Positions 17,362 through 41,694 of a stretch of 64,000 nucleotides of DNA are shown piece after piece. Location of the stretch: positions 19,103 through 83,102 of the forward strand of contig DAFS01000037.1 in assembly GCA_002495525.1 (NCBI GenBank), in the 5' to 3' direction. Under the pieces are notes generated by a model. The model saw only the letters and a program-made list of their open reading frames with translations, was not told where the DNA came from and did not search any database. The translations under genes were made by a program, and so were the position numbers. The number at the start of each line of letters is the position of its first letter. The stretch's first letter is position 1. This DNA comes from Euryarchaeota archaeon UBA89 (GTDB taxonomy: Archaea; Thermoplasmatota; Poseidoniia; Poseidoniales; Thalassarchaeaceae).

Positions 17362-18429
17362 ATGAGCCATATGTCCAAAGATGTATTTTGCATTGTTTGT
17401 GGAGATTCTTCCAAACTTTCTTCCAATCGTCTTTGTGAATCATGTTTCCGTAAGCGTGTAACATTATCAAAAGTCCCTAATACAATACAACAATTTCGCT
17501 GCCCAAAGTGTGAATCATACGAAATCAGAGGTCGTTGGTCCAAGATGGAACAAGAATCGTTGGCGGATTTGAGGATTCGCGATAATTTAGAATTAGATGA
17601 AAGAGCCGAAGATGTGAATATTGGATTCGCATTACAGATTATTGATGATAGAACTAACCGAATTCATCTTGATGTTTCTGGAATGATAGATAATTTTTCT
17701 TTTGAAGATAGCTTCGAGATTTTGTTACAAACTAGTAATGCAATTTGTACTCCTTGTACTAGAAAAGATGGTGCGTATTTTGAGGCTATTGTTCAACTCC
17801 GTTCAGCAGGAAGGAAACTGTCTGAGAAAGAACTCAAGGAATTAAGGGATACTTTAGATGAAATGTTAGGTGGAATGGAGGCAGATCCAATGTTTTTCAT
17901 TACTAAAGAAGGCATTGTAACTGGAGGTTGGGATTTACAACTTGGATCTAAGTCCATGGCTAGGAATTGGGCTCGTATTTTAACAAAGAAGTTTGGAGGT
18001 ACTGTTAAAGAAACATCTACTGTTGTAGGAATGAGAGATGGTATTGAGATTACAAGACTAACAGTCAGCTATCGAAAACCTGCTTATGATGTTGGAGATG
18101 TGGTGAAATTAAATAACGATTTATGGATGATTGATTCCTGGCAGAAAGATGGCCCTATAATCCGTCGATTGAAATTCTTTCATCGAACTGGGGCATCTTG
18201 GAGAGATATGGAAAAGGCTAGAATAATTTGTTCTCGCTCAGAACAATTTATTGTAGATATTTTTAATCGTGATAGTTCTGCTGCAGAGATAATGACTCCT
18301 CATGATTATACTATGGCAACTGTTGCTTTACCCTATGATGATGATAAAAAATCAACAAAACTACGTATTGGGTTCATAGAAGATATGTGGGTAGCGTTAC
18401 CTGGGTTTGTTGGCGAGGTGGATTTATGA
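17362..18429 (+). CDS. nmd3: Archaeal NMD3-family protein (ribosomal large-subunit biogenesis factor homolog)
   Basis: N-terminal CxxC pairs (CIVCGDSS..LCESCF, CPKCESYE) and a later CTPC are followed by the NMD3-like body. The length is about 350 aa. Confidence 0.75.
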   Translation: MSHMSKDVFCIVCGDSSKLSSNRLCESCFRKRVTLSKVPNTIQQFRCPKCESYEIRGRWSKMEQESLADLRIRDNLELDERAEDVNIGFALQIIDDRTNRIHLDVSGMIDNFSFEDSFEILLQTSNAICTPCTRKDGAYFEAIVQLRSAGRKLSEKELKELRDTLDEMLGGMEADPMFFITKEGIVTGGWDLQLGSKSMARNWARILTKKFGGTVKETSTVVGMRDGIEITRLTVSYRKPAYDVGDVVKLNNDLWMIDSWQKDGPIIRRLKFFHRTGASWRDMEKARIICSRSEQFIVDIFNRDSSAAEIMTPHDYTMATVALPYDDDKKSTKLRIGFIEDMWVALPGFVGEVDL

Positions 18430-19466
18430 AAAAGAAAGATATTGAGGGACTTGCCAGAGAATTAGATTCACAGGATATGGTTGGATATACTAGAAATTTC
18501 ATGGATGATTTTGAATCGGCAATCTCTGAGGTAATTGATATTGATGTAGATAAAGATTGGTCAGGAGTTCTTTGTTTAGGAATGGGTGGCTCTGGTGCAG
18601 GCGGAATGTTTCTTTCAACTTTAGCTGACTATTCGGGAGGGATTCCCTTTGTAGTATGGAGAGATTATGGCCTACCCTCCTGGTGGGGTCCTGATTGGTT
18701 GGTTTTAGCAACATCTTATTCAGGAAATACAGAGGAAACAATTGATGGTGTCCATGAAGCCTTGCAATCTGGAGGAACAGTAATTGGGATTTCATCAGGT
18801 GGTGAACTAGAGAAGTTAATTTCTGAAAGTGATGGATCATTATTCCTTCCTGTTCCAGGAGGTCAAATGCCTAGGTCAGCATTTGGACATTTGTTTGGAA
18901 GACAATTATCAGTATGTTGGTCTTTAGGAATAATCGAGAAACCAGATGATAAAGAGACTTCGGAAATGATTGAACGTCTCCGTTCATCTTCTAATGATTT
19001 CGACATAAGTGGCGGCAACGGGCTGGTCGTTTCTGTAGCAGAATCAATGCTAAATAGACAAATTGGAATTATCGCACCTACTATTTTGATTTCTGTAGCA
19101 AATCGTTTTGCAAATCAGTTAAATGAAAATTCTGAGGTATTTGCACGCCCTTCTGAGTTACCTGAGATGAATCATAATGAGATAGTTGCATGGTCTTCTG
19201 CTAATGAAAATGAACACTCTCTAATTTATTTCTCTTGTGGAAATATTCACCCTAGAATCAATTCAAGGATGGACTGGATGCTAGAAAATATCGATAACGA
19301 TAGTTCTTGGATAATTGACTGTGAGGGGCAGAGTCTTCTCGAAAGTTTACTCTACGCTTCACATATTTCTGATTGGATAAGTATTTGTTTAGCATTGTTG
19401 CAAGGAGTTGATCCTTCTGAGATGAGTTCTATAGTGAATCTTAAATCTCATCTTTCTAAAGTTTAA
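18426..19466 (+). CDS. Bifunctional phosphoglucose/phosphomannose isomerase (SIS domain, archaeal PGI/PMI family)
   Basis: CLGMGGSGAGG and ATSYSGNTEETI are the PGI/PMI SIS motifs. The ATG at 18426 overlaps the nmd3 stop (ATGA). Confidence 0.8.
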   Translation: MKKKDIEGLARELDSQDMVGYTRNFMDDFESAISEVIDIDVDKDWSGVLCLGMGGSGAGGMFLSTLADYSGGIPFVVWRDYGLPSWWGPDWLVLATSYSGNTEETIDGVHEALQSGGTVIGISSGGELEKLISESDGSLFLPVPGGQMPRSAFGHLFGRQLSVCWSLGIIEKPDDKETSEMIERLRSSSNDFDISGGNGLVVSVAESMLNRQIGIIAPTILISVANRFANQLNENSEVFARPSELPEMNHNEIVAWSSANENEHSLIYFSCGNIHPRINSRMDWMLENIDNDSSWIIDCEGQSLLESLLYASHISDWISICLALLQGVDPSEMSSIVNLKSHLSKV

Positions 19467-20044
19467 TAAATTGGCCCAAGAACCAATCTGGGGTCCGGAT
19501 AATTTTCTAATGCCTCATCTCTATACTGTGGGTCGACAACTCCCGGCATATCATGAGTTTCAGGTTCATTAATTGATAGTTGAAAATGCAAATGCGATTC
19601 CCATCCCCCATTCTCATGTTTATCACCCATCCAACAAATCACTTCTCCGCGTGAGATATTTTGGCCAATTTTTTTCCCTTTTATTGATTTAGCACTCAAA
19701 TGCCCATAAAGCGCCCATATTGGTTTATTATCCACCAAGTGCTTTGTTATTATTACATATCCATAATCTCCGTCTGCTGGATTATATCCAAAATGTGAAA
19801 TTACTCCCTGATCAAATGCCATACAAGGTGTACCTACAGGAGCTCCAATATCTATGCCAATATGTAGGAATCTACCATCAGAAAATAGTTCGGTAGAATA
19901 CATCCCTGGCCTTAATTCGTCATATCTCCCAATATCGTATTCAAATCTTGAAGGAGTATATTCACCTCCAGTGAAATCTCTAACTTCATATTCATTTGGT
20001 AGATTAACTACTGGATGATATCGCCCGGTTTGCCACTTAATCAT
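19463..20044 (-). CDS. M23-family metallopeptidase without a signal peptide
   Basis: HxxxD (HIGIDIG) and HxH (SHLHFQL) motifs are present in a 193-aa protein with no hydrophobic N-terminus. Confidence 0.75.
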   Translation of the reverse strand: MIKWQTGRYHPVVNLPNEYEVRDFTGGEYTPSRFEYDIGRYDELRPGMYSTELFSDGRFLHIGIDIGAPVGTPCMAFDQGVISHFGYNPADGDYGYVIITKHLVDNKPIWALYGHLSAKSIKGKKIGQNISRGEVICWMGDKHENGGWESHLHFQLSINEPETHDMPGVVDPQYRDEALENYPDPRLVLGPIY

Positions 20045-20068: not shown

Positions 20069-21307
20069 TCATCCCTCTTCATCAGTATTTTCCTTCATAA
20101 CAGTAGGTGTTCTAATTGACTCAGAAATGGATTTTTGCTCAACTAGATTTTTAGGTAGGTTTGTAGCAATATCCAGCTTCTCCAGTTTACGACCTTGAGG
20201 TAATACATTAGTTTCCCATGAACCTACTGCTTTATTATAAAATTCAGTTGCTTTACCTAACCTATTACCTACTTCCGCAAAATGTTCACTCCAAGTAGTC
20301 ATTCTTTTGTAAAATAACTGTGCAACTTCAACCACTTCTTTTGCTTCTTCAGCAAATCTAACTTGTTGCCAATACAAAGCAGCAGTTCTTAGTAATGCGA
20401 TTAGGGAAGCAGGCGATGTAATTATCACCCCTCTATTCATTGCATCAGAATGTAATGTTGGATCTACTTCAAAGGCGGCAGAAACTAAAGCTTCGGATGG
20501 TACAAACATTACTACGAAATCAGCCCTTCCTGATACCTTTGTCAAATATCCCTTTTCTGCTAATTTATTCATTGTATCCCGCATTGATTTTGCATGTTGA
20601 ATTAATTTCTCTTGTCTCGCATCTAAATCTTCAATTTCTAAAGCCTCAAGGTAATGTTTACCACTGGTTTTCGCATCAATTGGAATTGATCCATCGCCTG
20701 GAAGACGTACAATGACATCAGGGATAAGTCCCGAAGCACCCTTTTGTTCTAAGAAATCGGTATGTTTTGTCATACCTGCCATTTCAAGTAAATTCCTCAA
20801 TGCGATTTCACCCCAATCTCCCCTAACTGAAGAACTTTTTCGGAGTGCAGTTGAAAGATTTGAGGCTTCTTTTCCTAAACTCTCTGTACGAATTCCTAGA
20901 TCTGTAATCTGCCTCTTAATACCTGAATATGCATCTCTACGTTCCTTTTCAAGATCTTTAGAAAATTTTTCTAAATCATTAAGAGATTTTGTCATTGGAC
21001 CGAATAATGAATCAATTTCTTTCTGCCTAGCAATATGATCTTTTTCTGCTGAAATTTGCACTTTCCCAAGTCTCTCTTCAGCAAGCTTTAGGAAATCTTC
21101 TGAGTTCTTCCTTCCTAAATCTGTTACTAGATTTTCTATTTCTGCCTTCACTCTAATTTCTGAGGTTGCTATTGCCTCCTCTTTTGCTTTAATCCTCTCT
21201 TCTGTTCTAATAACTTCACCACTTAATTTCTGTCTTGCAATCAGCCAACCAATTGTCGCTCCAAGTGTCAAACCAATAGCAACATATACAAGTCCCATTA
21301 AATCCAT
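20069..21307 (-). CDS. rmuC: DNA recombination protein RmuC
   Basis: It has an N-terminal TM, a long coiled-coil and a C-terminal RmuC nuclease-like core (GDWGEIALRNLLE, PDVIVRLP, IDAK, FVVMFVPSEA). Confidence 0.85.
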   Translation of the reverse strand: MDLMGLVYVAIGLTLGATIGWLIARQKLSGEVIRTEERIKAKEEAIATSEIRVKAEIENLVTDLGRKNSEDFLKLAEERLGKVQISAEKDHIARQKEIDSLFGPMTKSLNDLEKFSKDLEKERRDAYSGIKRQITDLGIRTESLGKEASNLSTALRKSSSVRGDWGEIALRNLLEMAGMTKHTDFLEQKGASGLIPDVIVRLPGDGSIPIDAKTSGKHYLEALEIEDLDARQEKLIQHAKSMRDTMNKLAEKGYLTKVSGRADFVVMFVPSEALVSAAFEVDPTLHSDAMNRGVIITSPASLIALLRTAALYWQQVRFAEEAKEVVEVAQLFYKRMTTWSEHFAEVGNRLGKATEFYNKAVGSWETNVLPQGRKLEKLDIATNLPKNLVEQKSISESIRTPTVMKENTDEEG

Positions 21308-21410: not shown

Positions 21411-22538
21411 ATGTCTATGCGACCTGTAAATTGTGCAATTCTTGGGTCAAGAGGTTTGGTTGCCCAGAGGTATATTCAAAGATTAGTCAATCATGATTGG
21501 TTTAATCCAGTATCTATTGTAGGTTCAAGTTCAACTGTGGGAATGAATATTCGAGATTTACCTTGGTATCTTGATGAAAAAAGGCCTCAGTTACCAGATA
21601 TTAATGTCTTAGGATTAAATGATTTAGATACACTTGTGGATGAATTGATAAAAAAAAAAGTTACTGTAATATTTTCTGCATTACCTGACTCAATTGCCAG
21701 TGAAGTAGAGAAGCCTCTGGCTGAAAGAGGGTTTTGTGTAATTAGTCATGCGTTAATTCATAGATTAAAGGCTGAGGTTCCTCTGGTAATTCCAGATATT
21801 AATTCTGACCATTTAAAGATTTTAGAATCTCAAAGTTTTGGTACGGGATCACTAATTTCTTGTAGTAATTGCATGGTAGTCCCTATTGCTTTGACTTTAT
21901 TCCCCTTAATGTCTGAATATGATTTTTCTACTGTAAAAATTATTACTGAACAATCGTTATCTGGTGGAGGTAGGAAGATGCTAGAAAGAGGTAGAAGCGG
22001 TCTAGAAATTGCTTCTTCGATTCCCGGTGAATCTGAAAGTATTATATCTGAATTAAATAGAATTTTAGGTGAAAAAAATGAAGGCATTTTTCAAGAAGCA
22101 AATTTAGATGTGAAAGTTTGGTGTTCTCGGGCTAGTCATGATTTTGGTCACTTAGCTACAGTTGAGATAATTTTTTCCAACGAAATCAGTGCTCATGAAA
22201 TAATTGAAGCGTGGCAAAATTTTTCATCGAGGGTCTTCGATTCCAGACTCCCATCCTCGTCAAAGATAATCAACTTCGTGGATGGTAAGTTAGATCCAAT
22301 TAAACATAGATGGAGTGGTTCAGTAACTGCATTGCCAGATGAAGATCTTAGCGCTGGCATGCCAGTTTCTGTAGGTGAAATAGAAGTATCTGGTAAGAAA
22401 CTAAAATTCAAGTTATTATCTGATAATACTATTAGAGGGGCTGCAGGATATGGTGTTCTTCTTGCTGAGTTACTACTTGTTGAAGAATTAATTCCAGAAA
22501 AAAATCTAATCAATATGAGTTTTAATAGACGTAATTGA
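21411..22538 (+). CDS. asd: Aspartate-semialdehyde dehydrogenase family protein
   Basis: It has an N-terminal Rossmann segment CAILGSRGLVAQRY, the active-site context SCSNCMVVP and the C-terminal DNTIRGAAG. I take ATG 21411 as the start rather than 21354. Confidence 0.75.
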   Translation: MSMRPVNCAILGSRGLVAQRYIQRLVNHDWFNPVSIVGSSSTVGMNIRDLPWYLDEKRPQLPDINVLGLNDLDTLVDELIKKKVTVIFSALPDSIASEVEKPLAERGFCVISHALIHRLKAEVPLVIPDINSDHLKILESQSFGTGSLISCSNCMVVPIALTLFPLMSEYDFSTVKIITEQSLSGGGRKMLERGRSGLEIASSIPGESESIISELNRILGEKNEGIFQEANLDVKVWCSRASHDFGHLATVEIIFSNEISAHEIIEAWQNFSSRVFDSRLPSSSKIINFVDGKLDPIKHRWSGSVTALPDEDLSAGMPVSVGEIEVSGKKLKFKLLSDNTIRGAAGYGVLLAELLLVEELIPEKNLINMSFNRRN

Positions 22539-22564
22539 TATGTATTATCTTCTCGGATAATTTA

Positions 22565-23176
22565 ATGAGACTTCGCCATCTTGCCATGTCTCTTTCAAAA
22601 TTACAACCACATCCTTGTGAAAATGTTGATTTAGAACAGTACTCTACTGACGGCAATATTGCATCTAAATTCATTTCATCTATAGTCTCATATGGAGATT
22701 TATCTTCTGATTCTATTATCGGTGACTTGGGGGCTGGAAATGGTATTCTTGGGATAGGCGCACTGAAAGTCGGCGCGGGAAAATGTATTTTTCTAGAAGC
22801 AGATAAGAATGCTTGTGAAATATTGCAAGAAAATTTAATTTCAAATAATTTTAAGGATTCAGGAGTAATAATTAATCAGTTCTTGGACATTAATACAAAT
22901 TTTCCTAAAGTTGACTTGATTATTTGTAATCCTCCATGGGGTAGACAAAAAGAAAAAGCAGACCGTCCATTTTTAGATTTAATCATAAAAAATGGCACTG
23001 TTTCCCATTTAATGCATAGCGCTCATGCAAATCATTTACACCCCTTCTTCGAATCAAGAAATTGGTCGGTAGAAAAATATGGTGAATATGATTTCAATTT
23101 ACCTGCTAATTTCTCTCATCATCGGAAAGAAAAAGAATCTACTAAAGTAGGATTCTGGCGTTTTTCACCAAATTGA
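22565..23176 (+). CDS. Small class I SAM-dependent methyltransferase (predicted RNA methylase, METTL5/COG2263-like)
   Basis: It has the SAM motif I DLGAGNGILG and the catalytic ICNPPWG. Its length is about 200 aa and it lies directly upstream of csl4. Confidence 0.7.
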   Translation: MRLRHLAMSLSKLQPHPCENVDLEQYSTDGNIASKFISSIVSYGDLSSDSIIGDLGAGNGILGIGALKVGAGKCIFLEADKNACEILQENLISNNFKDSGVIINQFLDINTNFPKVDLIICNPPWGRQKEKADRPFLDLIIKNGTVSHLMHSAHANHLHPFFESRNWSVEKYGEYDFNLPANFSHHRKEKESTKVGFWRFSPN

Positions 23177-23230
23177 ATTTTTGTTTTTTGACCCGTGTTC
23201 TTCATAGGTGAATCATCAGTCGCGTAACCA

Positions 23231-24502
23231 ATGAGTGCTTCAGCAGGTGACTTTGTTACGCCAGGAACACGTGTTTTAGCAGATGAAAATACGTCTCTAG
23301 GTGATGGGCTTGTTTCTACAGAAAATGGTGCCCTGGCTTTACTTTCAGGGAAATTAATTGAAGAGAATGGAGTCATCTCAGTTGAGATTTCAGGTTCCAC
23401 TGCTAATTTACCAAAAATTGGCGATATAGTAATTGGGCAAGTAAATCGTCTTAATGCGAAAACAGCTGAGATTAGGATATTACATATTGAAGGAAAAGAT
23501 GGTGGAGAAAGAGATATTCCTGCTTTGAAATTATTTGCCGATATATACGTGACTGATTTTGTTGATCGATACATTCCATCAGCCGGAGATGCAATGCGTT
23601 CTAGAGATATTATAAGGGCTAAGATAACTCAATTTGAGCCCATGCTAAAAGCTTCAACTAGAGATGGTCCTAGTTTGGGTGTCGTCCACGCTATTTGCCC
23701 TACATGTGGTGCAGAATTACAAAAAAATGATTCTATTCCAGATTTTAATGTGAAATGTAATATGTGTGATTACAAAGGCTATCGTGTTCTTTCTAGTGGT
23801 TTTGGCACTGGTTATTCAGTACCTGAAAATTCAGATATTGATAAATTCAATAGACCTGGTGAGAGATGGTCTGAGCAGGCAGAGAAAGTTCTTGGGCATG
23901 ATGGAGCCCGTCCATATCTTTCCCCCTTAGCAGACTTTAGGAGGGGAATAAAACATGAAATTCCACCCTCAGCCGCCAGGCAAATTGGCCGTAATAATTC
24001 TAATAATCGTTCAAGAGGTCAACGTAGGGAGATGCATAAAACAACTTGCACAATGTGCTTAAAACCTACTGAAGTGCCATTTAAGCCAACTCCTGGGAAG
24101 CCAATTAGATGCCGTGAATGTATGGATAAGGTGAATAATGGTACTGCTACAAAGGAAGAACTCTCTGCTGAACGTCAGGTTTTGAAAGCAGCTAGATCTA
24201 AAATGTTAGAATCATCTGGAATTAAGTTATTCGTGGGAAGTATTTCTTGGGATGCAAACGAAGAGGACTTAAGGAAATTATTTTCAACTTTCGGGGAACT
24301 TAAAGAAGTACATATTGCAAAAGATCGTGAGACAGGTAAATCTAGAGGTTTTGCCTTCATTAAATTTTCAAGTCACAAAGATGGACAAAAGGCGGTCAAA
24401 GAATTAGATGGTACAGAATTTCATGGTCGTAAAATAAGTGTTCAAGAGTCTAATGAATCTCGTGGTGGGTCTGGTAATAGGCGTAGACATGGTAGAAAAT
24501 AA
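23231..24502 (+). CDS. csl4: Exosome cap subunit Csl4 fused to a CxxC-x17-CxxC module and a C-terminal RRM with an RG-rich tail
   Basis: The Csl4 layout is present: an N-terminal domain, an S1-like segment (PKIGDIVIGQVNRLNAKTAEIRI) and a Zn ribbon (CPTCGAEL...CNMCDY). Then comes CTMC-x17-CREC at about 24046-24130. The RRM has RNP2 KLFVGSI and RNP1 RGFAFIKF at about 24224-24454. The tail is SRGGSGNRRRHGRK. Confidence 0.8.
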   Translation: MSASAGDFVTPGTRVLADENTSLGDGLVSTENGALALLSGKLIEENGVISVEISGSTANLPKIGDIVIGQVNRLNAKTAEIRILHIEGKDGGERDIPALKLFADIYVTDFVDRYIPSAGDAMRSRDIIRAKITQFEPMLKASTRDGPSLGVVHAICPTCGAELQKNDSIPDFNVKCNMCDYKGYRVLSSGFGTGYSVPENSDIDKFNRPGERWSEQAEKVLGHDGARPYLSPLADFRRGIKHEIPPSAARQIGRNNSNNRSRGQRREMHKTTCTMCLKPTEVPFKPTPGKPIRCRECMDKVNNGTATKEELSAERQVLKAARSKMLESSGIKLFVGSISWDANEEDLRKLFSTFGELKEVHIAKDRETGKSRGFAFIKFSSHKDGQKAVKELDGTEFHGRKISVQESNESRGGSGNRRRHGRK

Positions 24503-24540: not shown

Positions 24541-26319
24541 ATGGGAGGCTGGCTTGTAATAGATGGCTATGAGGATGAGCCAGCGGCTTTTGGCGTTCCA
24601 AACTATCTTGGTTTCCATATTCGTTATATTTGCGGAGTTCTAGAATCTAGAGGTGTCGAATATACATATCTAACTATAGATCAATGGAGGATTAAATATA
24701 AACAATTTCTGAATGATAAATCAAGTAGAGATAAGATTAGAAGTGAATTAAGTAATCTTGCAGGAACTGTAGTGCTTGCCGGTTCTATAGTTCCAGGAAA
24801 ATATATCCGTGGCACACCAGTTAGTCAGAGAGAATTAGATCAAATCCTTTCTATTATCCCTAGCGAAGTTCCAATATTATGCGGAGGCTGGGCGATAAAA
24901 AATTGGAGATACTCGGGGTGGACTCCTTTGCGTACAAATCTTTTCTGTGCTGTTAATGATGTTGATTCTTCTTTGGCTTTATTTCTTTCTACCGGGGAAT
25001 GGAAACATAGTAGGAGGACAAAAGATGAATGGACTCTTTGGGCGCATTATGGATCTATCTCTAAGGCAGTTACAAACCATCCTGATCTATTAACCGTAGA
25101 TGGAAGATCTGGGCCACTAACCTATGAAATAGAATTATATCAGGGTTGTGTTAGGTTCAAAAGAGGATGTAAATTTTGTATAGAGCCGAAAAAAGGCGTT
25201 CCATTATGGAGAAGCGAAGATGATATCCTAAAAGAAATATCTGGTGCCTTAGATTCTGGTGTGAAAAATATACGTATTGGTGGTGCAACGGATATCTACA
25301 CATATCGTGCAGAAGGCGTTAGAGAATTAGAATATCCAATTCCTAATCCCGAACCAATAAGTCAAATTCTTCATGGGGCAAGAGAAGATGAGAGATTAGA
25401 TATCTTACATGTCGATAATGGAAATCCTTCGATAATTGCTGAGAATATCGAACCATCTACTGAAATAACAAAATGTTTAGTTGAGAATCTGAGTGATGGT
25501 GCAGTTTTATCATTCGGTTTAGAATCAGCAGATCCGCATGTTCATCAGATGAATTGGCTTAACTGTGACCCTAAACAACTCAAGATTGCAATCAAACATA
25601 TCAATGATTTTGGTAGAGTTAAGGGAAAGAGAGGATTACCTAAACTTTTACCCGGTCTTAATTTCATTGCAGGATTAAATGGAGAAACTAAAAACAGTTA
25701 TGATATGAATTTCAATTTATTAGAAGATTTAAGATCAGAGGGGCTGTGGTTACGAAGAATAAATATTAGACAAGTTGAAGGTCAAGGTTTTCAAGAAATA
25801 TCTGGAAATGATTTTAGAAATTTTAAGAAAAAAGTGCGTGAAGAGATTGACAAACCTCTTCTTGAAGAAATATTCCCTATTGGTACAGAATTGTCGCACA
25901 TTTGGTGGGAGTCTCAAGGAGATAGAATTAGAAGACCTGAACAGGTCGATAATCCTGTCCTCAGTTCGCCTTCAATTCATGGAAAATCGGGAATTACTTT
26001 TGGGAGACAGATTGGTGCTTATCCAATATTAGTCGGAGTTCCATACCTAATTCCTCTTGAAACTAGCTCAAATATTGTAGTCACAGGTCATGGAATGAGA
26101 AGTATTTCAGGTGTTGAAATCGGCTTGAATATTAATTCAGTTTCTCAACAACAACTGGAATCTATACCTGGAATTGGAAAGAAAGCAGCATGGAGAATAA
26201 TTAGTTCCAGAGCTAAAGCCAGTCGGAGCTCAAAAATTCCCTTTGATTCCGTTGAAATGGCTTTTGAAATGGCGCAAGTTGAAATATCTCCGATAGTAGA
26301 AAAAGTATTATCAATCTGA
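24541..26319 (+). CDS. Radical SAM enzyme with a C-terminal helix-hairpin-helix (COG1031-like architecture)
   Basis: The cluster region is YQGCVRFKRGCKFCIEP. TIM-barrel-like motifs follow (IRIGGATD, SFGLESAD). The C-terminal HhH is LESIPGIGKKAAWRI. Confidence 0.7.
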   Translation: MGGWLVIDGYEDEPAAFGVPNYLGFHIRYICGVLESRGVEYTYLTIDQWRIKYKQFLNDKSSRDKIRSELSNLAGTVVLAGSIVPGKYIRGTPVSQRELDQILSIIPSEVPILCGGWAIKNWRYSGWTPLRTNLFCAVNDVDSSLALFLSTGEWKHSRRTKDEWTLWAHYGSISKAVTNHPDLLTVDGRSGPLTYEIELYQGCVRFKRGCKFCIEPKKGVPLWRSEDDILKEISGALDSGVKNIRIGGATDIYTYRAEGVRELEYPIPNPEPISQILHGAREDERLDILHVDNGNPSIIAENIEPSTEITKCLVENLSDGAVLSFGLESADPHVHQMNWLNCDPKQLKIAIKHINDFGRVKGKRGLPKLLPGLNFIAGLNGETKNSYDMNFNLLEDLRSEGLWLRRINIRQVEGQGFQEISGNDFRNFKKKVREEIDKPLLEEIFPIGTELSHIWWESQGDRIRRPEQVDNPVLSSPSIHGKSGITFGRQIGAYPILVGVPYLIPLETSSNIVVTGHGMRSISGVEIGLNINSVSQQQLESIPGIGKKAAWRIISSRAKASRSSKIPFDSVEMAFEMAQVEISPIVEKVLSI

Positions 26320-26378: not shown

Positions 26379-29300
26379 ATGTCGAACAATCAGTCTTCTC
26401 AAAAGAATCTCGCGGTTAGTATTTGTATACTCTTTCTATTGGTTCCTTTGTTAGGAATTATCGAATTTCCGGAAGATATAGAAATTAGTGAAGATACAGA
26501 GTTTTCATCAGTAGTTAGAACCTCTAGTGCCATGAATTCTCCGGGTTCTGAAAGAGGAAGTGTATTCACTAATTCAGTATTAGAACTTAATGCGGGCTCT
26601 CCTACTTTAGTTCTTAATAATGGGTCTTTAGTTTCCTTTGATAATGGTTCTCCAATTTTCTCAGAAGGCAATGTCATTTCTATTTCGGGCCAATGTTCAC
26701 TTTTGTCAAATTTCAGTCTTTTCTGTTCAGGAATTAATAACTACGGGCAACTCGGATTAGGTGATCAGCAATTATTGAGTGGATACGTTGATTTTGGTAA
26801 TAAAATCCCTGCGGCTTTATCAGAAGGAAATAATCACTATTGCGCTATCTTGGATGACGGTTCTGTTTCTTGCTGGGGGAGAAATAACAATGGCCAACTT
26901 GGAGATGGTACAAATGCAAATAGAAATTCTCCGGTTTCAGTTAATCTTGGTACCAATAAAACAGCAGTTTCTATTTCTAGCAGTAATGACTTCTCTTGTG
27001 TATTACTGAATACAGGAGAGATTTCTTGCTGGGGTGACAATTCATACGGAATTCTTGCCGATGGCACAACATCGAATAGTAATTCTCCAGTAATTGTTAA
27101 TCATTCAGTAGGTGAAAGGGCAGTTTCAATCGCCACTCCAGGATATAGTGTATGTGCAATATTTTCTTCGGGCAATATTAGTTGCTGGGGAGAATCGTAT
27201 ACGATTTCTTCCTCTAATAGTAATTTGATAAGTGGTTCAATTTCAATAACTCTTCCATCAAATAGAACTGCTATTTCACTTGATGGAACTGGTTCTCATG
27301 TTTGTACAATCCTAGATAATAATTCAATTAATTGTTGGGGATTAAACACCTATGGACAATTAGGGAATGGGGAGTGTTCATCTGTTATTCCAAGTAGTGG
27401 ATGTACCGGAACTAATGCTAATTCTCCTCAATACGTGAATCTTTCAAATGTTATCGCGATATCATCAGGTTCCGATTCTACCTGTTCGATTAATACTAAT
27501 TATCAATTATATTGCTGGGGTAAACAAGAACAGATATTTGATAATACTTCTAATTCTAAATTATCACCATATCTGATGAACTTTAGTGCCTCTGATGTTT
27601 CTTATTCTGATCAAGATATGGATGGAGATGGTATCGTCAACGATTTGGATGTTCACATGTCTGGCGATGATGATGGTGATGGAGTGCCTTCACCTACCGA
27701 TCCTTATCCTAGTAATCCTGCTAGATGGATGGATTGTGAACTTGGATCTTGGGGTAGAATTGATTGTACAGAATCATCTTTGGGGCACTTCTCATTATTT
27801 TCAGCATTATATCAATCTGAATGCGATTTAGGCGAGTATCAACATCAAACCGGAAAATCATATTGTAACCAAGCTTCAGCCGGACATTATGTCGATTCTA
27901 TCGCATCTGCAAATCAGTCAATTTGTCCCGAGGGTTACTATCAAAATCAAATCCATTCATCATCATGTGTTATTTCTAATCCCGGTAGTTTTGTATCTTT
28001 GACCACAGGCGATGCTGGAAATACCAATACCTCCTCATATAACCTTAGCTCAACTAGCGCAAGTTATACTGGTCGTATCGGTAATCAATATGATAATTAT
28101 GATTATTACAACATTAATATTGCGAAGTTTCACCATATTTCAGTAAGTATTGAATCATCAAATGCTGAAGTGAATATCTCACTTTATGATCAATCAATGG
28201 TTCTTCTAGACATTAACAACTCTTTATCTGCTGAACCTATTGTATCTACTAATCTAACTTCAAGTTCTTCCACACGTAATATTTTTATTGTGATTGAGAA
28301 AGTTAACTCGACTGGAGATTATCATATGAATCTAACATACTATACTTCAGATGGTTCTAATGTGATTGGAGATATTTTTAATCTTATAGATTCAGAAATT
28401 GGTGTAGATGAGTCACTATGTTCTGCTGGAACATTTGAGTCAGGATTTGGAAGTTCTTCATGTACAGCAGCAGCACAAGGATATTTTGTACCTAATGCTG
28501 GTTCAATATCTCAAACACCATGTTCACCGGGTACATATCAGGGATTGTCAGGGCAAACGAGTTGCTTGAACACCTCTCCTGGATATTATACTGCTGCTTA
28601 TGGTTCTTTTATTCCGACACCTGCTTCTTTAGGTTATTATGTTAATACAACAGGCGCTACTAACCAAATTGCTTGTTTACCTGGGACGTATCAAAATCAA
28701 ACCGCTCAGACTAGTTGTATCGATACAGATGCAGGATATTTTACTTCTTCATCTGGTTCTCCAGCACAGATACCTTGCTCTAATGGAACATATCAACCCA
28801 ATACTAATCAAGAATCTTGTATTCTTTCTTCTCCAGGCTATCATGTTCCTAACAATGCATCTTCTACTCAGATACCTTGTAATCCTGGAACATATCAGCC
28901 ATTTTCGGGACGTTCAGACTGTATTGATGCGAGCCCGGGATATTATGCTTCTTTAGCAGCATCAACAAACCAATCTCCTTGTGAAATAGGTAGTTTTCAA
29001 CCAAATTCTGGTCAGATTAGGTGTCTTGCAGCTGACCCAGGTCATTTTGTAGATACTAATGCCTCAGTTACTCAAACTGCGTGCGACTTAGGAACATACC
29101 AGCCTTATTCTTCTAGCTCGAGTTGTTTCGATGCGGGTCCCGGGCATTATGTAGATTCAACAGGCTCATCATCACAAATTGCTTGTTTAATTGGGACTTA
29201 TAATCCTAATATTGCTTCTAATAGTTCAACATCTTGTTTAGAGTCTGAACAAGGTTATTACGTTCCAAATAATGGTTCATCAGTACAATTAGTTTGTTTG

Positions 29301-31157
29301 CCAGGGACTTATCAGCCTAATTTTGCCCAATCTTCTTGTATAGATGCAGATTCAGGATATTACGTTGATTCATATCAAGCAATTAGTCAAGAACCGTGTT
29401 CATTAGGTACTTACCAGCCACAAGCCGCACAAATCGGTTGTTATGGAGCAGATCCTGGTCATTATGTCGATTTACCTGCTGCTGCGATTCAAACTCCTTG
29501 TCCAGCCGGTTTTTACAACCCCTCTTCTTTATCGACAAACTCTGAATCATGTATTAGTGCGGATCTAGGATATTTTGTCCCATCAGAGGGGTCATCTTCA
29601 CAATTTATCTGTTTGGAAGGTACTTACCAGTCATCTGAAGGTCAATCATCATGTATAGATTCTCCAGAAGGAGCATATGTAATGAATCCGGGACAATCAG
29701 AATTTATTGAATGTCTGGAAGGAACATTTCAACCTAATGCAAAGTCGGTAAATTGTTTAGACGCAGAAATTGGGCATTTCTCATCAGGAAAGATGTCAAT
29801 CAGTCAGATACCTTGTCCAGCGGGAACTTATCAGCCTAATTCTGGTCAATCTTCATGTCTAGATGCAGATATCGGTTACTATGTTTCCTCAGAAGGTCAA
29901 TCTTCTCAAGAGATTAATCCATTTGATTTCTATACCGATTCTCCCGGTAGTTCTTTTCTCACCCAATGTCCAAGCAACTATATTACAATAATTGAGGGTG
30001 CAACATCGATTAATAATTGCCTATTAGATTCTGATTCAGATAGGATTATTGATGAAGATGATATTGATGATGATGGTGATGGTAGGTTAGATTCTGTAGA
30101 TTCTTGTAGCCCTGGAGTAATTGGTTGGATTAGTAATTCAACGACAGATATTGATGGTGATGGATGTAAAGATGATATTGAGGATTCCGATGATGATAAT
30201 GATTCAATTTTAGATCAATACGATGCTTTCCCTCTCGATTCAAGTGAATCTATTGATACAGATTCCGATGGGATTGGTGATAACCAAGATACAGACGATG
30301 ATGGAGATGGTTGGTCTGATTTGCAAGAATCTACTTGTGAAACGGATTCATTAATATCTCAGTCCGTACCTATTGACACAGATTCTGATGGAGAATGTGA
30401 CATTGCAGACTCAGATGATGATGGAGATGGTGAATTGGATGTAAGTGATTGGGCTCCATTAGATGCTAATGAGTGGCTTGATACTGATGGAGATGGCATT
30501 GGTAACAATGCCGATAGTGATGACGATAACGATGGCTGGTCAGATATTAAAGAAATTGAAGAAGGTACTAATCCCCTTCTTCCAGACACAGATACAGATT
30601 CTTATATCGATTCTAATGATGAATTCCCTAATGATATTTCAGAATGGATTGATTCAGACGATGATGGAGTAGGAGATAACTCAGATTCTCATCCTGGTAT
30701 CAAATATTTCCAAACCAACCTACAATTTATATTAGCAATTTCTGGAGGAGTTATATTACTAGCTGTATTTGGCTATCTAGCTGTCATTACCCTGCGTAGG
30801 AAGCCTGAAAATATCAGTGAATCAAAACCTGAAGAAAATGAATTAATTGAAGTTGATTATCCTCATGAAGGAATGTCAGAGCCTAATGCTGAATTAGAAA
30901 ATAATAATTTAGTAGAGGATTCTTCTGAAGAAGAAACAGAAGTTGTCAGAGATACTTCTCACATTGATGCTTTGCTTAATGAGTTGCCAACTCCTCCAAA
31001 ACCTCAGGTTATATCGCCACCTGAAGGAACACCTGTGAACGAATACGGGCAAAGAGTATGGGCGGATGAGACGGGTCAAGTTTGGTGCTTAAATTCTGAT
31101 GGTTCAATATTAAGGCATGATGCCGCAACTGGCGGATGGGTTCAATATCATAACTAA
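26379..31157 (+). CDS. Giant (1,592 aa) type-I surface protein: RCC1-like repeats, ephrin-receptor-like Cys repeats, a PPC-like domain, thrombospondin type-3-like Ca-binding repeats, a TM and a cytoplasmic tail
   Basis: It starts with a signal anchor. RCC1-type blades (SCWGRNNNGQLGDGT, SCWGDNSYGILADGT, NCWGLNTYGQLGNG) span about 26700-27540. C-x-x-G-T-Y-Q repeats lie at 27730-27990 and 28419-30020. A PPC-like beta-sandwich spans about 28070-28345. DxDxDGxxDxxD repeats lie at 30021-30696. The TM is at 30724-30793 and the tail is 121 aa. Confidence 0.85.
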   Translation: MSNNQSSQKNLAVSICILFLLVPLLGIIEFPEDIEISEDTEFSSVVRTSSAMNSPGSERGSVFTNSVLELNAGSPTLVLNNGSLVSFDNGSPIFSEGNVISISGQCSLLSNFSLFCSGINNYGQLGLGDQQLLSGYVDFGNKIPAALSEGNNHYCAILDDGSVSCWGRNNNGQLGDGTNANRNSPVSVNLGTNKTAVSISSSNDFSCVLLNTGEISCWGDNSYGILADGTTSNSNSPVIVNHSVGERAVSIATPGYSVCAIFSSGNISCWGESYTISSSNSNLISGSISITLPSNRTAISLDGTGSHVCTILDNNSINCWGLNTYGQLGNGECSSVIPSSGCTGTNANSPQYVNLSNVIAISSGSDSTCSINTNYQLYCWGKQEQIFDNTSNSKLSPYLMNFSASDVSYSDQDMDGDGIVNDLDVHMSGDDDGDGVPSPTDPYPSNPARWMDCELGSWGRIDCTESSLGHFSLFSALYQSECDLGEYQHQTGKSYCNQASAGHYVDSIASANQSICPEGYYQNQIHSSSCVISNPGSFVSLTTGDAGNTNTSSYNLSSTSASYTGRIGNQYDNYDYYNINIAKFHHISVSIESSNAEVNISLYDQSMVLLDINNSLSAEPIVSTNLTSSSSTRNIFIVIEKVNSTGDYHMNLTYYTSDGSNVIGDIFNLIDSEIGVDESLCSAGTFESGFGSSSCTAAAQGYFVPNAGSISQTPCSPGTYQGLSGQTSCLNTSPGYYTAAYGSFIPTPASLGYYVNTTGATNQIACLPGTYQNQTAQTSCIDTDAGYFTSSSGSPAQIPCSNGTYQPNTNQESCILSSPGYHVPNNASSTQIPCNPGTYQPFSGRSDCIDASPGYYASLAASTNQSPCEIGSFQPNSGQIRCLAADPGHFVDTNASVTQTACDLGTYQPYSSSSSCFDAGPGHYVDSTGSSSQIACLIGTYNPNIASNSSTSCLESEQGYYVPNNGSSVQLVCLPGTYQPNFAQSSCIDADSGYYVDSYQAISQEPCSLGTYQPQAAQIGCYGADPGHYVDLPAAAIQTPCPAGFYNPSSLSTNSESCISADLGYFVPSEGSSSQFICLEGTYQSSEGQSSCIDSPEGAYVMNPGQSEFIECLEGTFQPNAKSVNCLDAEIGHFSSGKMSISQIPCPAGTYQPNSGQSSCLDADIGYYVSSEGQSSQEINPFDFYTDSPGSSFLTQCPSNYITIIEGATSINNCLLDSDSDRIIDEDDIDDDGDGRLDSVDSCSPGVIGWISNSTTDIDGDGCKDDIEDSDDDNDSILDQYDAFPLDSSESIDTDSDGIGDNQDTDDDGDGWSDLQESTCETDSLISQSVPIDTDSDGECDIADSDDDGDGELDVSDWAPLDANEWLDTDGDGIGNNADSDDDNDGWSDIKEIEEGTNPLLPDTDTDSYIDSNDEFPNDISEWIDSDDDGVGDNSDSHPGIKYFQTNLQFILAISGGVILLAVFGYLAVITLRRKPENISESKPEENELIEVDYPHEGMSEPNAELENNNLVEDSSEEETEVVRDTSHIDALLNELPTPPKPQVISPPEGTPVNEYGQRVWADETGQVWCLNSDGSILRHDAATGGWVQYHN
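28419..30020 (+). repeat. Degenerate in-frame tandem repeat with a 34-codon period made of two alternating 17-codon half-units
   Basis: Half-unit A is C-x-(P/x)-G-T-Y-Q-x3-(G/A)-Q-(S/T)-S. Half-unit B is C-x4-G-Y-(Y/F)-V-x3-G-S-x-(S/T)-Q. I counted about 14 GT(Y/F)(Q/N) cores by eye. Confidence 0.75.
30021..30696 (+). repeat. Array of Asp-rich calcium-binding repeats (thrombospondin type-3-like)
   Basis: DTDSDGIGDNQD, DTDDDGDGWSD, DTDSDGECDIADSDDDGDGELD, DTDGDGIGNNADSDDDNDGWSD and DSDDDGVGDNSD recur. The DNA shows a recurring GAYGAYGATGGAGATGG core. Confidence 0.75.
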
Positions 31158-41574: not shown

Positions 41575-41694
41575 TGATTCTACGAAAAGGTTCCATGATA
41601 TCAAGTCATTTGATTGAGAAGTTAGTTTATTTTGATTTATTCTTATAAACAAATCTTAGATAAGATTATACGAAGTTGTACAAGCGTTCATTTA

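What the first reader, a model, noticed from the sequence alone, without database searches (positions are those of the whole stretch)
22565..24502. Csl4 exosome cap subunit extended by a CxxC-x17-CxxC module and a canonical RRM
The first ~190 aa have the normal archaeal Csl4 layout: N-terminal domain, S1 and a CPTC...CNMC zinc ribbon. The ORF then continues for more than 200 aa. It runs through a basic linker and a CTMC-(17 residues)-CREC module (LKPTEVPFKPTPGKPIR spacer, matching the CxxC-x17-CxxC domain type). It ends in a textbook RRM (RNP2 KLFVGSI, RNP1 RGFAFIKF) and an RGG-like tail. RRM domains are abundant in eukaryotes and present in bacteria, but to my knowledge uncommon in archaea. 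Hard-wiring one onto the exosome cap would add a new substrate-recruitment surface. The upstream predicted RNA methylase is a partner I recall being noted with csl4 in comparative analyses of the archaeal exosome operons. That pairing supports a genuine csl4 locus.
Basis: partly seen in the sequence, partly recalled or inferred. Interest (0 to 1): 0.65.

Follow-up and report, generated by a model that had tools for sequence, protein, structure and literature searches.

The report
Exosome cap protein with built-in RNA-binding tail
Marine Group II archaea encode their exosome cap subunit Csl4 as one conserved, expressed protein that also carries a zinc knuckle and a classical RRM, so an RNA-recruiting module that other organisms supply as separate cofactors is here probably hard-wired onto the RNA-degrading machine.

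Summary
ORF 23231..24502 (+), 423 aa, is a complete Csl4 (N-terminal domain, S1, four-Cys Zn-ribbon). It continues through a conserved 55-aa extension and a basic spacer into one CxxC-x17-CxxC zinc knuckle, a long helix, a canonical RRM and an Arg-rich tail. All three domain models score above their curated cut-offs.

It is not an artefact. The same full-length architecture occurs in at least 80 species-level Poseidoniales genomes (53-90% identity). No run shows an indel, RNA-derived contigs cross the junctions, and every segment is under purifying selection.

The upstream gene is a METTL5-type rRNA m6A methyltransferase. It is csl4's conserved neighbour here, and in one unrelated archaeon with a short Csl4.

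- Orthologues in the same syntenic slot in other marine Thermoplasmatota carry different tails (2xRRM, 1xRRM, or 2xCxxC plus a Gly/Arg-rich stretch).
- These lineages have the full Rrp4-Rrp41-Rrp42 operon. For two variants it lies on the same 2-3 Mb contig as the extended csl4.

Most likely this is an exosome cap subunit with a tethered substrate-recruitment module. No paper found describes it. I rate it a new variant of a known kind; its function is inferred, not tested.

The parts
22535..23176 (+). METTL5-type (COG2263-like) RNA N6-adenine methyltransferase with an NPPW motif. The likely true start is the ATG at 22565. It is a conserved upstream partner of csl4.
   Evidence: PDB: PH1948 1wy7 E 1e-29; human METTL5 6h2u E 7e-19, end to end from query residue 11; Ta1320. 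Pfam MTS/PrmA/Cons_hypoth95. Directly upstream in 73/80 loci. A homologous MTase (E 7e-21) lies upstream of an ordinary short csl4 in L087.
23231..24502 (+). csl4 gene with a C-terminal CxxC-RRM extension (423 aa plus stop).
   Evidence: ORF; domain scans; full-length homologues; no indels in DNA or RNA contigs.
23231..23395 (+). Csl4 N-terminal (ring-contacting) domain, aa 1-55, with an invariant V.PG motif.
   Evidence: Alignment to 2ba1; invariant P11 and G12; pLDDT 82-88; ECR1_N Pfam hits in orthologues.
23396..23680 (+). S1 / OB-fold RNA-binding domain, aa 56-150.
   Evidence: Pfam EXOSC1 21.3 bits (cut-off 21.2); pLDDT mostly 84-93, with dips to 68-71 at aa 51-60 and 91-100; dN/dS 0.037; Csl4 chains are the top structural matches.
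23681..23815 (+). Csl4 zinc-ribbon, aa 151-195, with C156, C159, C176 and C179.
   Evidence: Four Cys invariant in 38 homologues; aligned with the 2ba1 Zn-ribbon; pLDDT ~90.
23816..23980 (+). Conserved lineage-specific extension, aa 196-250 (..LNRPGERWS.EAE..LGHDGARPYLSP.AD.RRG..HE.P). No domain model covers it. Its first half is shared by all marine tail variants.
   Evidence: 72% mean identity and dN/dS 0.049. Shared LN..G.RW...E...R...AD.R motif in the 2xRRM and 2xCxxC variants, absent from short Csl4s. pLDDT 75-83 for aa ~196-225, lower after that. No PDB relative by sequence.
23981..24025 (+). Variable basic, low-complexity spacer, aa 251-265.
   Evidence: 36% mean identity, dN/dS 0.13, length-variable; pLDDT below 50 for aa 253-265.
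24026..24130 (+). CxxC-x17-CxxC zinc knuckle (TIGR04272 / PF23477), aa 266-300, with C273, C276, C294 and C297.
   Evidence: 43.8 and 44.4 bits, both above cut-offs. Four Cys and most of the VPFKPTPGKP.RC spacer invariant in 38 homologues, the remaining positions at least 90% conserved. 80% identity, dN/dS 0.042. pLDDT ~86-87 for aa 271-280 and 291-300, 78 for aa 281-290. Family members bind Zn (PMC12704099).
24131..24214 (+). Connecting alpha-helix (predicted 308-329), within aa 301-328.
   Evidence: Helix with pLDDT ~84-85 for aa 301-320, 71 for aa 321-330; helix+RRM arrangement retrieves U1-70K chains.
24215..24454 (+). Canonical RRM, aa 329-408: RNP2 KLFVGSI, RNP1 RGFAFIKF, with aromatic residues F334, F374 and F376 invariant.
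   Evidence: RRM_1 78.6 bits. 348 PDB chains hit the full-length protein at E<=0.01, and all 60 listed match the RRM region. TM 0.90-0.94 and rmsd ~0.7-2 A to HuR, RBM39 and CIRBP RRMs. dN/dS 0.043.
24455..24499 (+). Arg-rich / RGG-like C-terminal tail, aa 409-423.
   Evidence: Sequence read directly; R-rich end conserved in composition; predicted disordered.
24541..26319 (+). Radical SAM protein with a C-terminal helix-hairpin-helix motif (592 aa). It is a conserved downstream partner, probably co-transcribed.
   Evidence: Pfam Radical_SAM 27.3 bits (below cut-off 29.5) and HHH_3 24.4 bits (below cut-off 27). Downstream in 62/80 loci. Follows the 2xRRM variants with a 4-nt overlap. RNA contig 23272-25754 spans csl4 into this gene. 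No PDB relative.

Best explanation
The gene encodes the Csl4 cap subunit of the archaeal RNA exosome of a Marine Group II archaeon (order Poseidoniales, probably family Thalassarchaeaceae).

Shown:
- The first ~195 residues are a complete Csl4.
- The lineage encodes Rrp4, Rrp41 (with catalytic motifs intact) and Rrp42.
- The tail is conserved, selected and expressed.

Inferred:
- The Csl4 part sits on the Rrp41-Rrp42 ring as in A. fulgidus. A lineage-specific ~30-55-aa extension packs on or near the Csl4 body.
- A flexible basic spacer then tethers a zinc knuckle, a helix, an RRM and an Arg-rich tail at the periphery of the cap.
- Each Csl4 in the trimeric cap would contribute one such arm. 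The arm captures single-stranded RNA and feeds it to the S1 pore. This would raise affinity and bias substrate choice for 3'-5' phosphorolysis or the reverse A-rich tailing reaction.
- This is the role played in Sulfolobus by the separate Csl4-bound subunit DnaG, and in eukaryotes by RRM/zinc-knuckle adaptor complexes.
- Co-transcription with a METTL5-type rRNA methyltransferase and an HhH radical SAM enzyme suggests that rRNA or other stable-RNA maturation is among the targets.
- In sister lineages the same gene carries other RNA-binding tails, so the tail behaves as an exchangeable module.
For: - Architecture: Csl4 94.2 bits (cut-off 90), CxxC 43.8 (cut-off 36), RRM_1 78.6 (cut-off 20.7). 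End-to-end alignment with 2ba1 Csl4.
- Fold: model of aa 1-265 has pLDDT 80, and its top 19 structural matches are all Csl4 chains (2ba1_A E 1.5e-16, TM 0.71). The RRM fold matches at TM 0.90-0.94.
- Conservation: 311 homologous clusters, and nearly all of the top 120 are full-length. 222 species-representative genomes carry a relative, and the best 80 are essentially all full-length, at 53-90% identity.
- Invariant residues: eight Cys, RNP aromatics, V.PG.
- Selection: dN/dS 0.04-0.16 in every segment.
- Continuity and expression: no indels; RNA-derived contigs span 23272-25754 and 23123-23761.
- Ring present: Rrp41 proteins named Poseidoniaceae and Thalassarchaeaceae. psmA-SBDS-Rrp4-Rrp41-Rrp42-L37ae operons.
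- Same record carries ring operon and extended csl4: ERZ26167216:ctg495766 and ERZ28548080:kelso_4__contig_13935.
- Orthologues in the same MTase-csl4-rSAM slot carry 2xRRM, 1xRRM or 2xCxxC tails.
- The CxxC-x17-CxxC domain binds zinc in M. mazei (PMC12704099).
- Csl4 recruits the RNA-binding subunit DnaG in Sulfolobus (PMC3672285).
Against: - No biochemical data exist for any member.
- Co-occurrence with the ring on a single contig was shown for the 2xRRM and 2xCxxC variants. For the window's CxxC+RRM type it rests only on source names at family level.
- The position of the tail relative to the ring is not modelled; the full-length model has pTM 0.31.
- RRMs and zinc knuckles can mediate protein-protein contacts rather than RNA binding.
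- Whether these archaea have DnaG, or a second short Csl4, was not tested.
- The metatranscriptome evidence comes from assembled contigs without strand information and may contain DNA.
- A T-run directly after the methylase stop codon could be a terminator.
- dS is near saturation, so the dN/dS values are rough.
Confidence: 0.65

Rival explanations
1. Exosome-independent RNA-binding protein. The fused protein acts mainly as a free RNA chaperone or regulator, like the cold-inducible glycine-rich RRM proteins after which some pipelines name it. The Csl4 S1 and Zn-ribbon would simply be further RNA-binding domains, and the protein would not reside on the ring.
For: The RRM is most similar to single-RRM glycine-rich/cold-inducible proteins (CIRBP 5tbx, 42% identity; NCBIfam Rbp_regulator 85.5 bits). 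JGI names include 'cold-inducible RNA-binding protein' and 'nucleolin'. csl4 is not in the ring operon.
Against: csl4 also lies outside the ring operon in the one unrelated archaeon examined, L087, where it sits in an MTase-csl4-rpoL arrangement. The ring-contacting N-terminal domain is retained with an invariant V.PG. Ring and Rrp4 are present in the same genomes. No other csl4 was seen that could serve as the cap subunit, although this was not searched exhaustively.
Confidence: 0.12
2. The tail is a protein-protein docking or regulatory module, not an RNA recruiter. It would tether the exosome to another machine (ribosome, the METTL5/radical SAM partners, SmAP, a helicase), or fold back to gate the S1 pore.
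For: The conserved linker scores only pLDDT ~51-63 between aa 226 and 250 despite dN/dS 0.049, which is typical of a segment that folds on a partner. Other tail variants share a conserved C-terminal peptide RE..A..EEG that looks like a docking motif. The gene neighbourhood is conserved with two RNA-modification-type enzymes.
Against: RNP1 and RNP2 are canonical with all aromatic RNA-stacking positions invariant. Every alternative tail is built from nucleic-acid-binding modules (RRM, Zn knuckle, RGG). The window's type lacks the RE..A..EEG peptide.
Confidence: 0.15
3. Assembly or annotation artefact: two adjacent genes (csl4 and a CxxC-RRM gene) merged by a missed stop, frameshift or chimeric contig.
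For: Chimeric and split versions do exist in public data. P0129 is an RmuC::Csl4-linker chimera, and the 115-aa 'RNA-binding proteins' are fragments of the 2xRRM type.
Against: The ORF is continuous in at least 80 independent species-level assemblies, including single-cell genomes. Four independent runs show no indels, and the variants seen keep the frame open. There are no conservation breaks at the junctions. The linker is under purifying selection.
Confidence: 0.01

Closest known systems
Archaeal Csl4 exosome cap subunit (A. fulgidus AF0206, PDB 2BA1/3M7N; S. solfataricus Csl4)
   Same: Same three-domain body (N-terminal domain, S1, four-Cys Zn-ribbon), aligned end to end. Same kind of gene neighbourhood, with a METTL5-like methylase upstream. 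Coexists with Rrp4, Rrp41 and Rrp42.
   Different: Canonical proteins end at ~180-197 aa. This one adds ~228 aa: a conserved extension, a spacer, a Zn knuckle, a helix, an RRM and an Arg-rich tail. rpoL, which follows csl4 in L087, is replaced here by a radical SAM/HhH gene.
Archaeal DnaG as the Csl4-dependent RNA-binding accessory subunit of the Sulfolobus exosome (PMC3672285, PMC4227792)
   Same: An extra RNA-binding surface attached to the exosome through Csl4 that changes substrate preference. This is the closest functional analogy within archaea.
   Different: DnaG is a separate Toprim-domain protein bound non-covalently. Here the extra module is covalently fused and built from an RRM and a Zn knuckle. 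Whether DnaG is also present in Poseidoniales was not tested.
Eukaryotic exosome adaptor complexes: NEXT (RBM7 RRM + ZCCHC8 zinc knuckle), TRAMP (Air1/2 zinc knuckles), Nrd1-Nab3 (RRMs) (own knowledge, not tested here)
   Same: The combination of an RRM with a zinc knuckle is used to deliver RNA to the exosome.
   Different: Those are separate, helicase-containing cofactor complexes with CCHC knuckles. No homology beyond the generic RRM is implied, and no helicase is involved here.
Single-RRM glycine-rich / cold-inducible RNA-binding proteins (human CIRBP/hnRNP A18 5TBX; plant GR-RBP1 4C7Q; cyanobacterial Rbp, NCBIfam NF058537)
   Same: Closest sequence and structure class for the RRM (42% identity, TM 0.90). 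The RRM is followed by an Arg/Gly-rich tail.
   Different: Those are ~90-170-aa free proteins. Here the RRM is the C-terminal domain of an exosome subunit. The NF058537 score (85.5) is below its cut-off of 100.
CxxC-x17-CxxC small zinc proteins of Methanosarcina (TIGR04272; PMC12704099)
   Same: Same CxxC-x17-CxxC module, scoring above the curated cut-offs. The family has been shown experimentally to bind zinc.
   Different: Those are small proteins, and the related hits found here are multi-copy CxxC-repeat proteins; all are of unknown function. Here a single copy is embedded between Csl4 and an RRM.

Membership tests
Csl4 (archaeal exosome cap subunit; NCBIfam NF034126, arCOG00676) | Whole-protein score at or above the curated equivalog cut-off | tested here: met
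   94.2 bits against a cut-off of 90, aa 7-192 on profile positions 1-179 of 180.
Csl4 (archaeal exosome cap subunit; NCBIfam NF034126, arCOG00676) | Three-domain layout: N-terminal domain, S1 fold, C-terminal Zn-ribbon with four Cys | tested here: met
   End-to-end alignment to 2ba1. C156, C159, C176 and C179 invariant. Model pLDDT 80, with the top 19 fold matches all Csl4 chains.
Csl4 (archaeal exosome cap subunit; NCBIfam NF034126, arCOG00676) | Genome also encodes the Rrp41-Rrp42 ring (and Rrp4) | tested here: met
   Rrp4-Rrp41-Rrp42 operons occur in Thalassarchaeaceae- and Poseidoniaceae-named sequences. The operon is on the same contig as extended csl4 for two tail variants. For the window's exact tail type the evidence is at family level only.
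Csl4 (archaeal exosome cap subunit; NCBIfam NF034126, arCOG00676) | Physically assembles on the ring as part of the trimeric cap | not testable with these tools
   Needs reconstitution, pull-down, or complex modelling with the cognate ring sequences.
RRM_1 (PF00076) | Score above the gathering threshold, with RNP1 and RNP2 consensus motifs | tested here: met
   78.6 bits against 20.7. RNP2 KLFVGSI and RNP1 RGFAFIKF. F334, F374 and F376 invariant.
RRM_1 (PF00076) | beta-alpha-beta-beta-alpha-beta fold | tested here: met
   DSSP shows E331-336, H344-352, E357-364, E371-379, H382-392, E403-406 at pLDDT 76-85. TM 0.90-0.94 to solved RRMs.
RRM_1 (PF00076) | Binds single-stranded RNA | not testable with these tools
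   Needs EMSA, fluorescence anisotropy or CLIP.
CxxC-x17-CxxC domain (TIGR04272 / PF23477 zf_Tbcl_2) | CxxC, 17 residues, CxxC, with a score above the cut-offs | tested here: met
   43.8 bits against 36 and 44.4 bits against 27. The spacing is exactly 17 residues, and the four Cys are invariant.
CxxC-x17-CxxC domain (TIGR04272 / PF23477 zf_Tbcl_2) | Coordinates one zinc ion | not testable with these tools
   Shown by ICP-MS for M. mazei family members (PMC12704099), not for this protein.
METTL5 / COG2263 rRNA m6A methyltransferase (upstream gene 22535..23176) | Full-length homology to METTL5 and its archaeal orthologues, with the (N/D)PP(F/W/Y) motif | tested here: met
   1wy7 E 1e-29 and 6h2u E 7e-19, covering query 11-211 against chain 4-208. 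NPPW at aa 132-135 (alignment).
METTL5 / COG2263 rRNA m6A methyltransferase (upstream gene 22535..23176) | Methylates a specific small-subunit rRNA adenine; Trm112-type partner | not tested
   No activity data, and no search for Trm112 was made.

The most novel reading that the evidence does not exclude
Marine Thermoplasmatota have turned the exosome cap into a modular, lineage-variable adaptor. One orthologous csl4 gene swaps RNA-binding tails (CxxC+RRM, 2xRRM, 2xCxxC+RGG). These tails replace separate cofactors such as DnaG and set substrate specificity. The conserved METTL5-csl4-radical SAM/HhH operon physically couples rRNA modification to exosome-mediated 3' processing. This would be a prokaryotic, covalently fused counterpart of eukaryotic NEXT/TRAMP-type targeting.
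Probability: 0.25. Interest if true: 0.75.

Novelty: new variant of a known kind. Interest (0 to 1): 0.6.

Why it matters
How the archaeal exosome chooses its substrates is poorly understood. It has been studied almost only in Sulfolobus and a few thermophiles, where specificity comes from Rrp4 and from DnaG bound through Csl4. Poseidoniales are among the most abundant archaea in the surface ocean and remain uncultured.

A cap subunit with a fused RRM and zinc knuckle gives a directly testable, self-contained model for substrate recruitment, because the proteins can be made recombinantly. The alternative tails form a natural domain-swap series. It is also a clear case of classical RRMs used in a core archaeal RNA-decay machine, which bears on how eukaryote-like RNA-targeting logic can arise.

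The link to a METTL5-type methyltransferase and an uncharacterised HhH radical SAM enzyme points to an unexplored RNA maturation module.

Tried and rejected
1. Looked for Rrp41, Rrp42, Rrp4 and DnaG in the window. Pfam scans of 46 of 49 ORFs found none; the ring operon is elsewhere in the genome.
2. Nine literature searches. No paper describes a Csl4-RRM fusion or the exosome of Poseidoniales.
3. Supplement search of the Undinarchaeota paper for the Poseidoniales exosome content was uninformative.
4. A direct protein search for Rrp41 would only have listed thermophile relatives because of the top-120 limit. This was circumvented with an A/T-biased DNA pattern for ADAG[IV]PM on metagenome contigs, then a protein search from a marine hit.
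Same-organism proof for the window's own strain was therefore not obtained.
6. Looked for a free-standing CxxC-RRM donor protein. The CxxC hits of the representative search are 2-5-copy CxxC proteins without RRMs, so no donor was identified.
7. The first full-length AlphaFold model, built from close homologues only, was poor for the S1 and Zn-ribbon. It was replaced by a model of aa 1-265 with a diverse alignment.
8. P0129, which seemed to carry the linker on a different N-terminus, is a chimeric contig.
9. The linker+CxxC region and the radical SAM protein have no solved relatives by sequence.
Full report
**Observation.** The window holds a single uninterrupted ORF at 23231..24502 on the + strand, 423 aa. 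The finding's start coordinate (22565) is the probable ATG of the preceding methyltransferase ORF (22535..23176), so the stated span covers two genes.
- CPTC/CNMC at C156, C159, C176 and C179.
- CTMC, 17 residues (LKPTEVPFKPTPGKPIR), then CREC, at C273, C276, C294 and C297.
- RNP2 KLFVGSI and RNP1 RGFAFIKF.
- An Arg-rich end, SRGGSGNRRRHGRK.

Profile searches place three families above their curated cut-offs:
- NCBIfam Csl4 equivalog: 94.2 bits (cut-off 90), aa 7-192.
- TIGR04272 CxxC-x17-CxxC: 43.8 bits (cut-off 36). Pfam zf_Tbcl_2: 44.4 bits (cut-off 27), aa 266-300.
- Pfam RRM_1: 78.6 bits (cut-off 20.7), aa 333-402.

Residues 8-194 align end to end with the 179-residue A. fulgidus Csl4 of PDB 2ba1 (E 2e-12). 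The RRM matches hundreds of solved RRMs. The linker and CxxC region has no solved relative by sequence.

**Not an artefact.**
- A protein search returned 311 homologous clusters. Nearly all of the best 120 are full-length (about 403-479 aa, mostly 417-446), with the same domain combination, down to 55% identity; a few are shorter fragments.
- A scan of species-representative genomes found relatives in 222 genomes. The best 80 are essentially all full-length (a few are cut by contig ends), at 53-90% identity. All are Poseidoniales or generically labelled marine Euryarchaeota/Thermoplasmatota, and they include single-cell genomes.
- Alignments show no loss of conservation at the domain junctions, and all eight Cys plus the RNP aromatics are invariant.
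- Nineteen public marine runs hold the locus, two of them metatranscriptomes.
- Laid on 22300-26500, four runs show no insertion or deletion. One RNA-derived contig runs continuously from 23272 to 25754, and another from 23123 to 23761. A DNA contig covers 22300-25907.
- The substitutions seen keep the frame open and change one residue.
- Pairwise dN/dS over 314 sequence pairs is 0.04-0.16 in every segment. dS is close to saturation, so these values are rough.

**Anatomy.** The first full-length AlphaFold model (38 close homologues) was confident for the N-terminal domain and for the knuckle-helix-RRM unit (block-mean pLDDT mostly ~78-87), but poor elsewhere. A second model of aa 1-265, built from 45 diverse sequences, reached mean pLDDT 80, with the S1 and Zn-ribbon near 90. 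Its 19 best structural matches are all Csl4 chains: 2ba1_A (E 1.5e-16, TM 0.71), then human and yeast Csl4. Rrp4/Rrp40 chains follow. The C-terminal domain superposes on HuR, RBM39 and CIRBP RRMs at TM 0.90-0.94.

Between the Zn-ribbon and the knuckle lies a 55-residue segment (aa 196-250) that no domain model covers. It is as constrained as the S1 domain (72% mean identity, dN/dS 0.049). Its first ~30 residues are modelled at pLDDT 75-83 and the rest at lower confidence. A short basic spacer that varies in length follows (aa 251-265).

**Organism and neighbourhood.** The window is about 37% G+C. Its closest relatives are labelled Thalassarchaeum/Thalassarchaeaceae, one of the two families of Poseidoniales.

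The upstream gene aligns over its full length with P. horikoshii PH1948 (E 1e-29), human METTL5 (E 7e-19) and T. acidophilum Ta1320. It carries an NPPW motif. It is therefore a METTL5-type RNA N6-adenine methyltransferase. It lies directly upstream of csl4 in 73 of 80 loci, and the radical SAM/HhH gene lies downstream in 62 of 80. In a relative the methylase stop and the csl4 start are 8 nt apart.

The pairing also occurs outside this lineage. An unrelated archaeon with an ordinary 181-aa Csl4 has a homologous methylase (E 7e-21) overlapping csl4 by 4 nt, followed by rpoL.

**A family of tails.** An exhaustive search of 1.84 billion cluster representatives with aa 1-330 found more distant long relatives. 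Pfam and local HMM mapping show:
- Csl4 + 2xRRM without a knuckle (453-487 aa; P0124, P0125, P0128, P0130, P0131, P0134, P0143).
- Csl4 + 1xRRM (P0136).
- Csl4 + 2xCxxC followed by a Gly/Arg-rich stretch and no RRM (P0121).

Source names are Thermoplasmatota, Poseidoniales and Poseidoniaceae. The three variants examined (P0143, P0134, P0121) sit in the same slot: methylase upstream, and in P0143 radical SAM downstream. They are therefore orthologues with different tails, not paralogues.

All marine forms share the first part of the extension after the Zn-ribbon (LN..G.RW...E...R...AD.R), which short Csl4 proteins lack. The non-window forms share a C-terminal peptide, RE..A..EEG.

By source names, the CxxC+RRM type tracks Thalassarchaeaceae, and at least one 2xRRM cluster tracks Poseidoniaceae. 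This assignment is tentative.

**Is there an exosome to cap?** The window has no ring subunit, and the literature is silent on this. I recalled the S. solfataricus Rrp41 sequence, and it matched PDB 2br2_B exactly. From the alignments I took the conserved motif ADAG[IV]PM, wrote it with the A/T-biased codons of this genome, and scanned the metagenome contigs. Of 120 loci returned, 113 encode Rrp41 homologues. One cluster of 11 comes only from marine assemblies.

Using one of these as a protein query gave 6217 hits. Close relatives are named Rrp41 of Candidatus Poseidoniaceae, Thalassarchaeaceae and Thermoplasmatota. Their loci show the classical superoperon: proteasome alpha, SBDS, Rrp4, Rrp41, Rrp42, L37ae, prefoldin beta. 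The Rrp41 sequences keep the phosphate-binding GTR and the acidic catalytic pair.

Two long contigs carry both the ring operon and an extended csl4:
- ERZ26167216:ctg495766 (3.0 Mb): the Csl4+2xCxxC gene lies within 595,532-616,914 and the ring operon within 2,305,718-2,318,446.
- ERZ28548080:kelso_4__contig_13935 (2.07 Mb): the Csl4+2xRRM gene lies within 616,616-620,025 and the ring operon within 933,232-939,960.

For the window's own tail type, co-occurrence rests on family-level names.

**Mechanism.**
- Shown: a complete Csl4 body; a conserved, selected and expressed tail made of a zinc-knuckle family member and a canonical RRM with intact RNP motifs; a complete exosome in the lineage.
- Inferred: the Csl4 part caps the ring as in 2BA1. 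The ~30-55-residue extension packs on or near the cap. The spacer lets the knuckle-helix-RRM-Arg tail swing at the periphery. Each arm captures single-stranded RNA and hands it to the S1 pore, raising affinity and biasing substrate choice.

This is the job done by DnaG, which needs Csl4 to bind the Sulfolobus exosome and changes its RNA preference (PMC3672285, PMC4227792). From general knowledge, RRM/zinc-knuckle adaptors such as NEXT and TRAMP do this job in eukaryotes. The CxxC-x17-CxxC domain binds zinc in M. mazei small proteins (PMC12704099). The operon partners (a METTL5-type methylase and an HhH radical SAM protein) hint at rRNA or stable-RNA maturation as a target. That last step is the most speculative.

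**Rivals.**
- An exosome-independent RNA chaperone role is possible, but the retained ring-contacting domain and the presence of the ring make it less likely.
- A protein-docking or gating role for the tail cannot be excluded. The lower-confidence but conserved part of the linker and the RE..A..EEG peptide of sister variants point that way. However, every tail variant is built from nucleic-acid-binding modules.
- The artefact explanation is excluded.

**Novelty and verdict.** The proteins are in public databases under automatic names: 'CxxC-x17-CxxC domain-containing protein', 'cold-inducible RNA-binding protein', 'nucleolin', 'exosome complex RNA-binding protein Csl4'. Nine full-text searches found no description of the fusion or of the exosome in this order.

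It is a new variant of a known kind: a genuine Csl4 with a covalently attached, lineage-variable RNA-binding module. It is order-wide in one of the ocean's most abundant archaeal groups. The functional model is plausible (about 0.65) but untested.

Noticed in passing
window 24541..26319 (+): A 592-aa radical SAM protein with a C-terminal helix-hairpin-helix motif. It follows csl4 in 62/80 loci, and follows the 2xRRM variants with a 4-nt overlap. Both Pfam hits are just below their cut-offs, and there is no solved relative. It is an uncharacterised, probably nucleic-acid-directed radical SAM enzyme linked to the exosome cap gene.
   Followed up: partly
window 23816..23980 (aa 196-250 of the Csl4 protein): A conserved segment with no domain model (NRPGERWS.EAE..LGHDGARPYLSP.AD.RRG..HE.P), dN/dS 0.049. 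Its first half is shared by all marine tail variants and is modelled at pLDDT 75-83; its second half scores only ~51-63.
   Followed up: partly
P0121, P0124, P0125, P0128, P0130, P0131, P0134, P0136, P0143 (alignment A3); loci L083, L084, L085, L213: Orthologous csl4 genes with other tails (2xRRM, 1xRRM, 2xCxxC plus a Gly/Arg-rich stretch) share a conserved C-terminal peptide, RE..A..EEG. The window's type lacks it. It may be a docking motif.
   Followed up: partly
window 23177..23190: The T-run ATTTTTGTTTTTTG lies immediately after the methylase stop codon and could be an archaeal oligo-T terminator. An RNA-derived contig (23123-23761) nevertheless reads through it.
   Followed up: no
window 26379..31157 (+): A 1592-aa protein with RCC1-like repeats, many ephrin-receptor-like Cys repeats, an Asp-rich region and a C-terminal hydrophobic segment. 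It is conserved downstream in 40/80 loci and is probably a giant surface protein.
   Followed up: no
window 8978..13810 (-): A 1610-aa subtilase (Peptidase_S8) with a CARDB domain, probably a large extracellular protease. This fits the proteolytic lifestyle proposed for Marine Group II.
   Followed up: no
window 17362..18429 (+), 19463..20044 (-), 20069..21307 (-): An NMD3 homologue (ribosome biogenesis) lies next to bacterial-type genes, an M23 peptidase and RmuC. All three are largely syntenic with csl4 across Poseidoniales.
   Followed up: partly
window 62915..63700 (+): A 261-aa ORF in which only aa 78-128 match the histone fold (CBFD_NFYB_HMF). It is either an extended histone-fold protein or a mis-called start.
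   Followed up: no
window 41632..44859 (+), 61337..62788 (-), 60836..61333 (+), 7846..8343 (+): Four ORFs (1075, 483, 165 and 165 aa) have no Pfam match at E<=1e-4.
   Followed up: no
P0129; P0291, P0293, P0292 (public protein clusters): Public data contain artefactual versions. P0129 is an RmuC::Csl4-linker chimera. The 115-aa 'RNA-binding protein' entries are the second RRM of the 2xRRM type called from an internal Met, and a 193-aa partial Csl4 is the other piece of the same gene type, which is probably broken at its Gly-rich repeat.
   Followed up: yes
L094, L100, L104, L122, L123, L131, L139, L156, L158, L163, L181; L209-L212, L215-L217: Rrp41 of marine Thermoplasmatota has [AS]AEAGTR where the S. 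solfataricus and P. abyssi Rrp41 (and the Rrp41 of PDB entry 8xfx) have QADAG[ST]R. The ring operon order is psmA-SBDS-Rrp4-Rrp41-Rrp42-L37ae-(76-79 aa ORF)-prefoldin beta-DHH.
   Followed up: partly
window 32273..33634 (+): A 453-aa protein combining a PilT/T2SSE-like ATPase domain with a KH domain, so it may be an RNA-associated NTPase.
   Followed up: no
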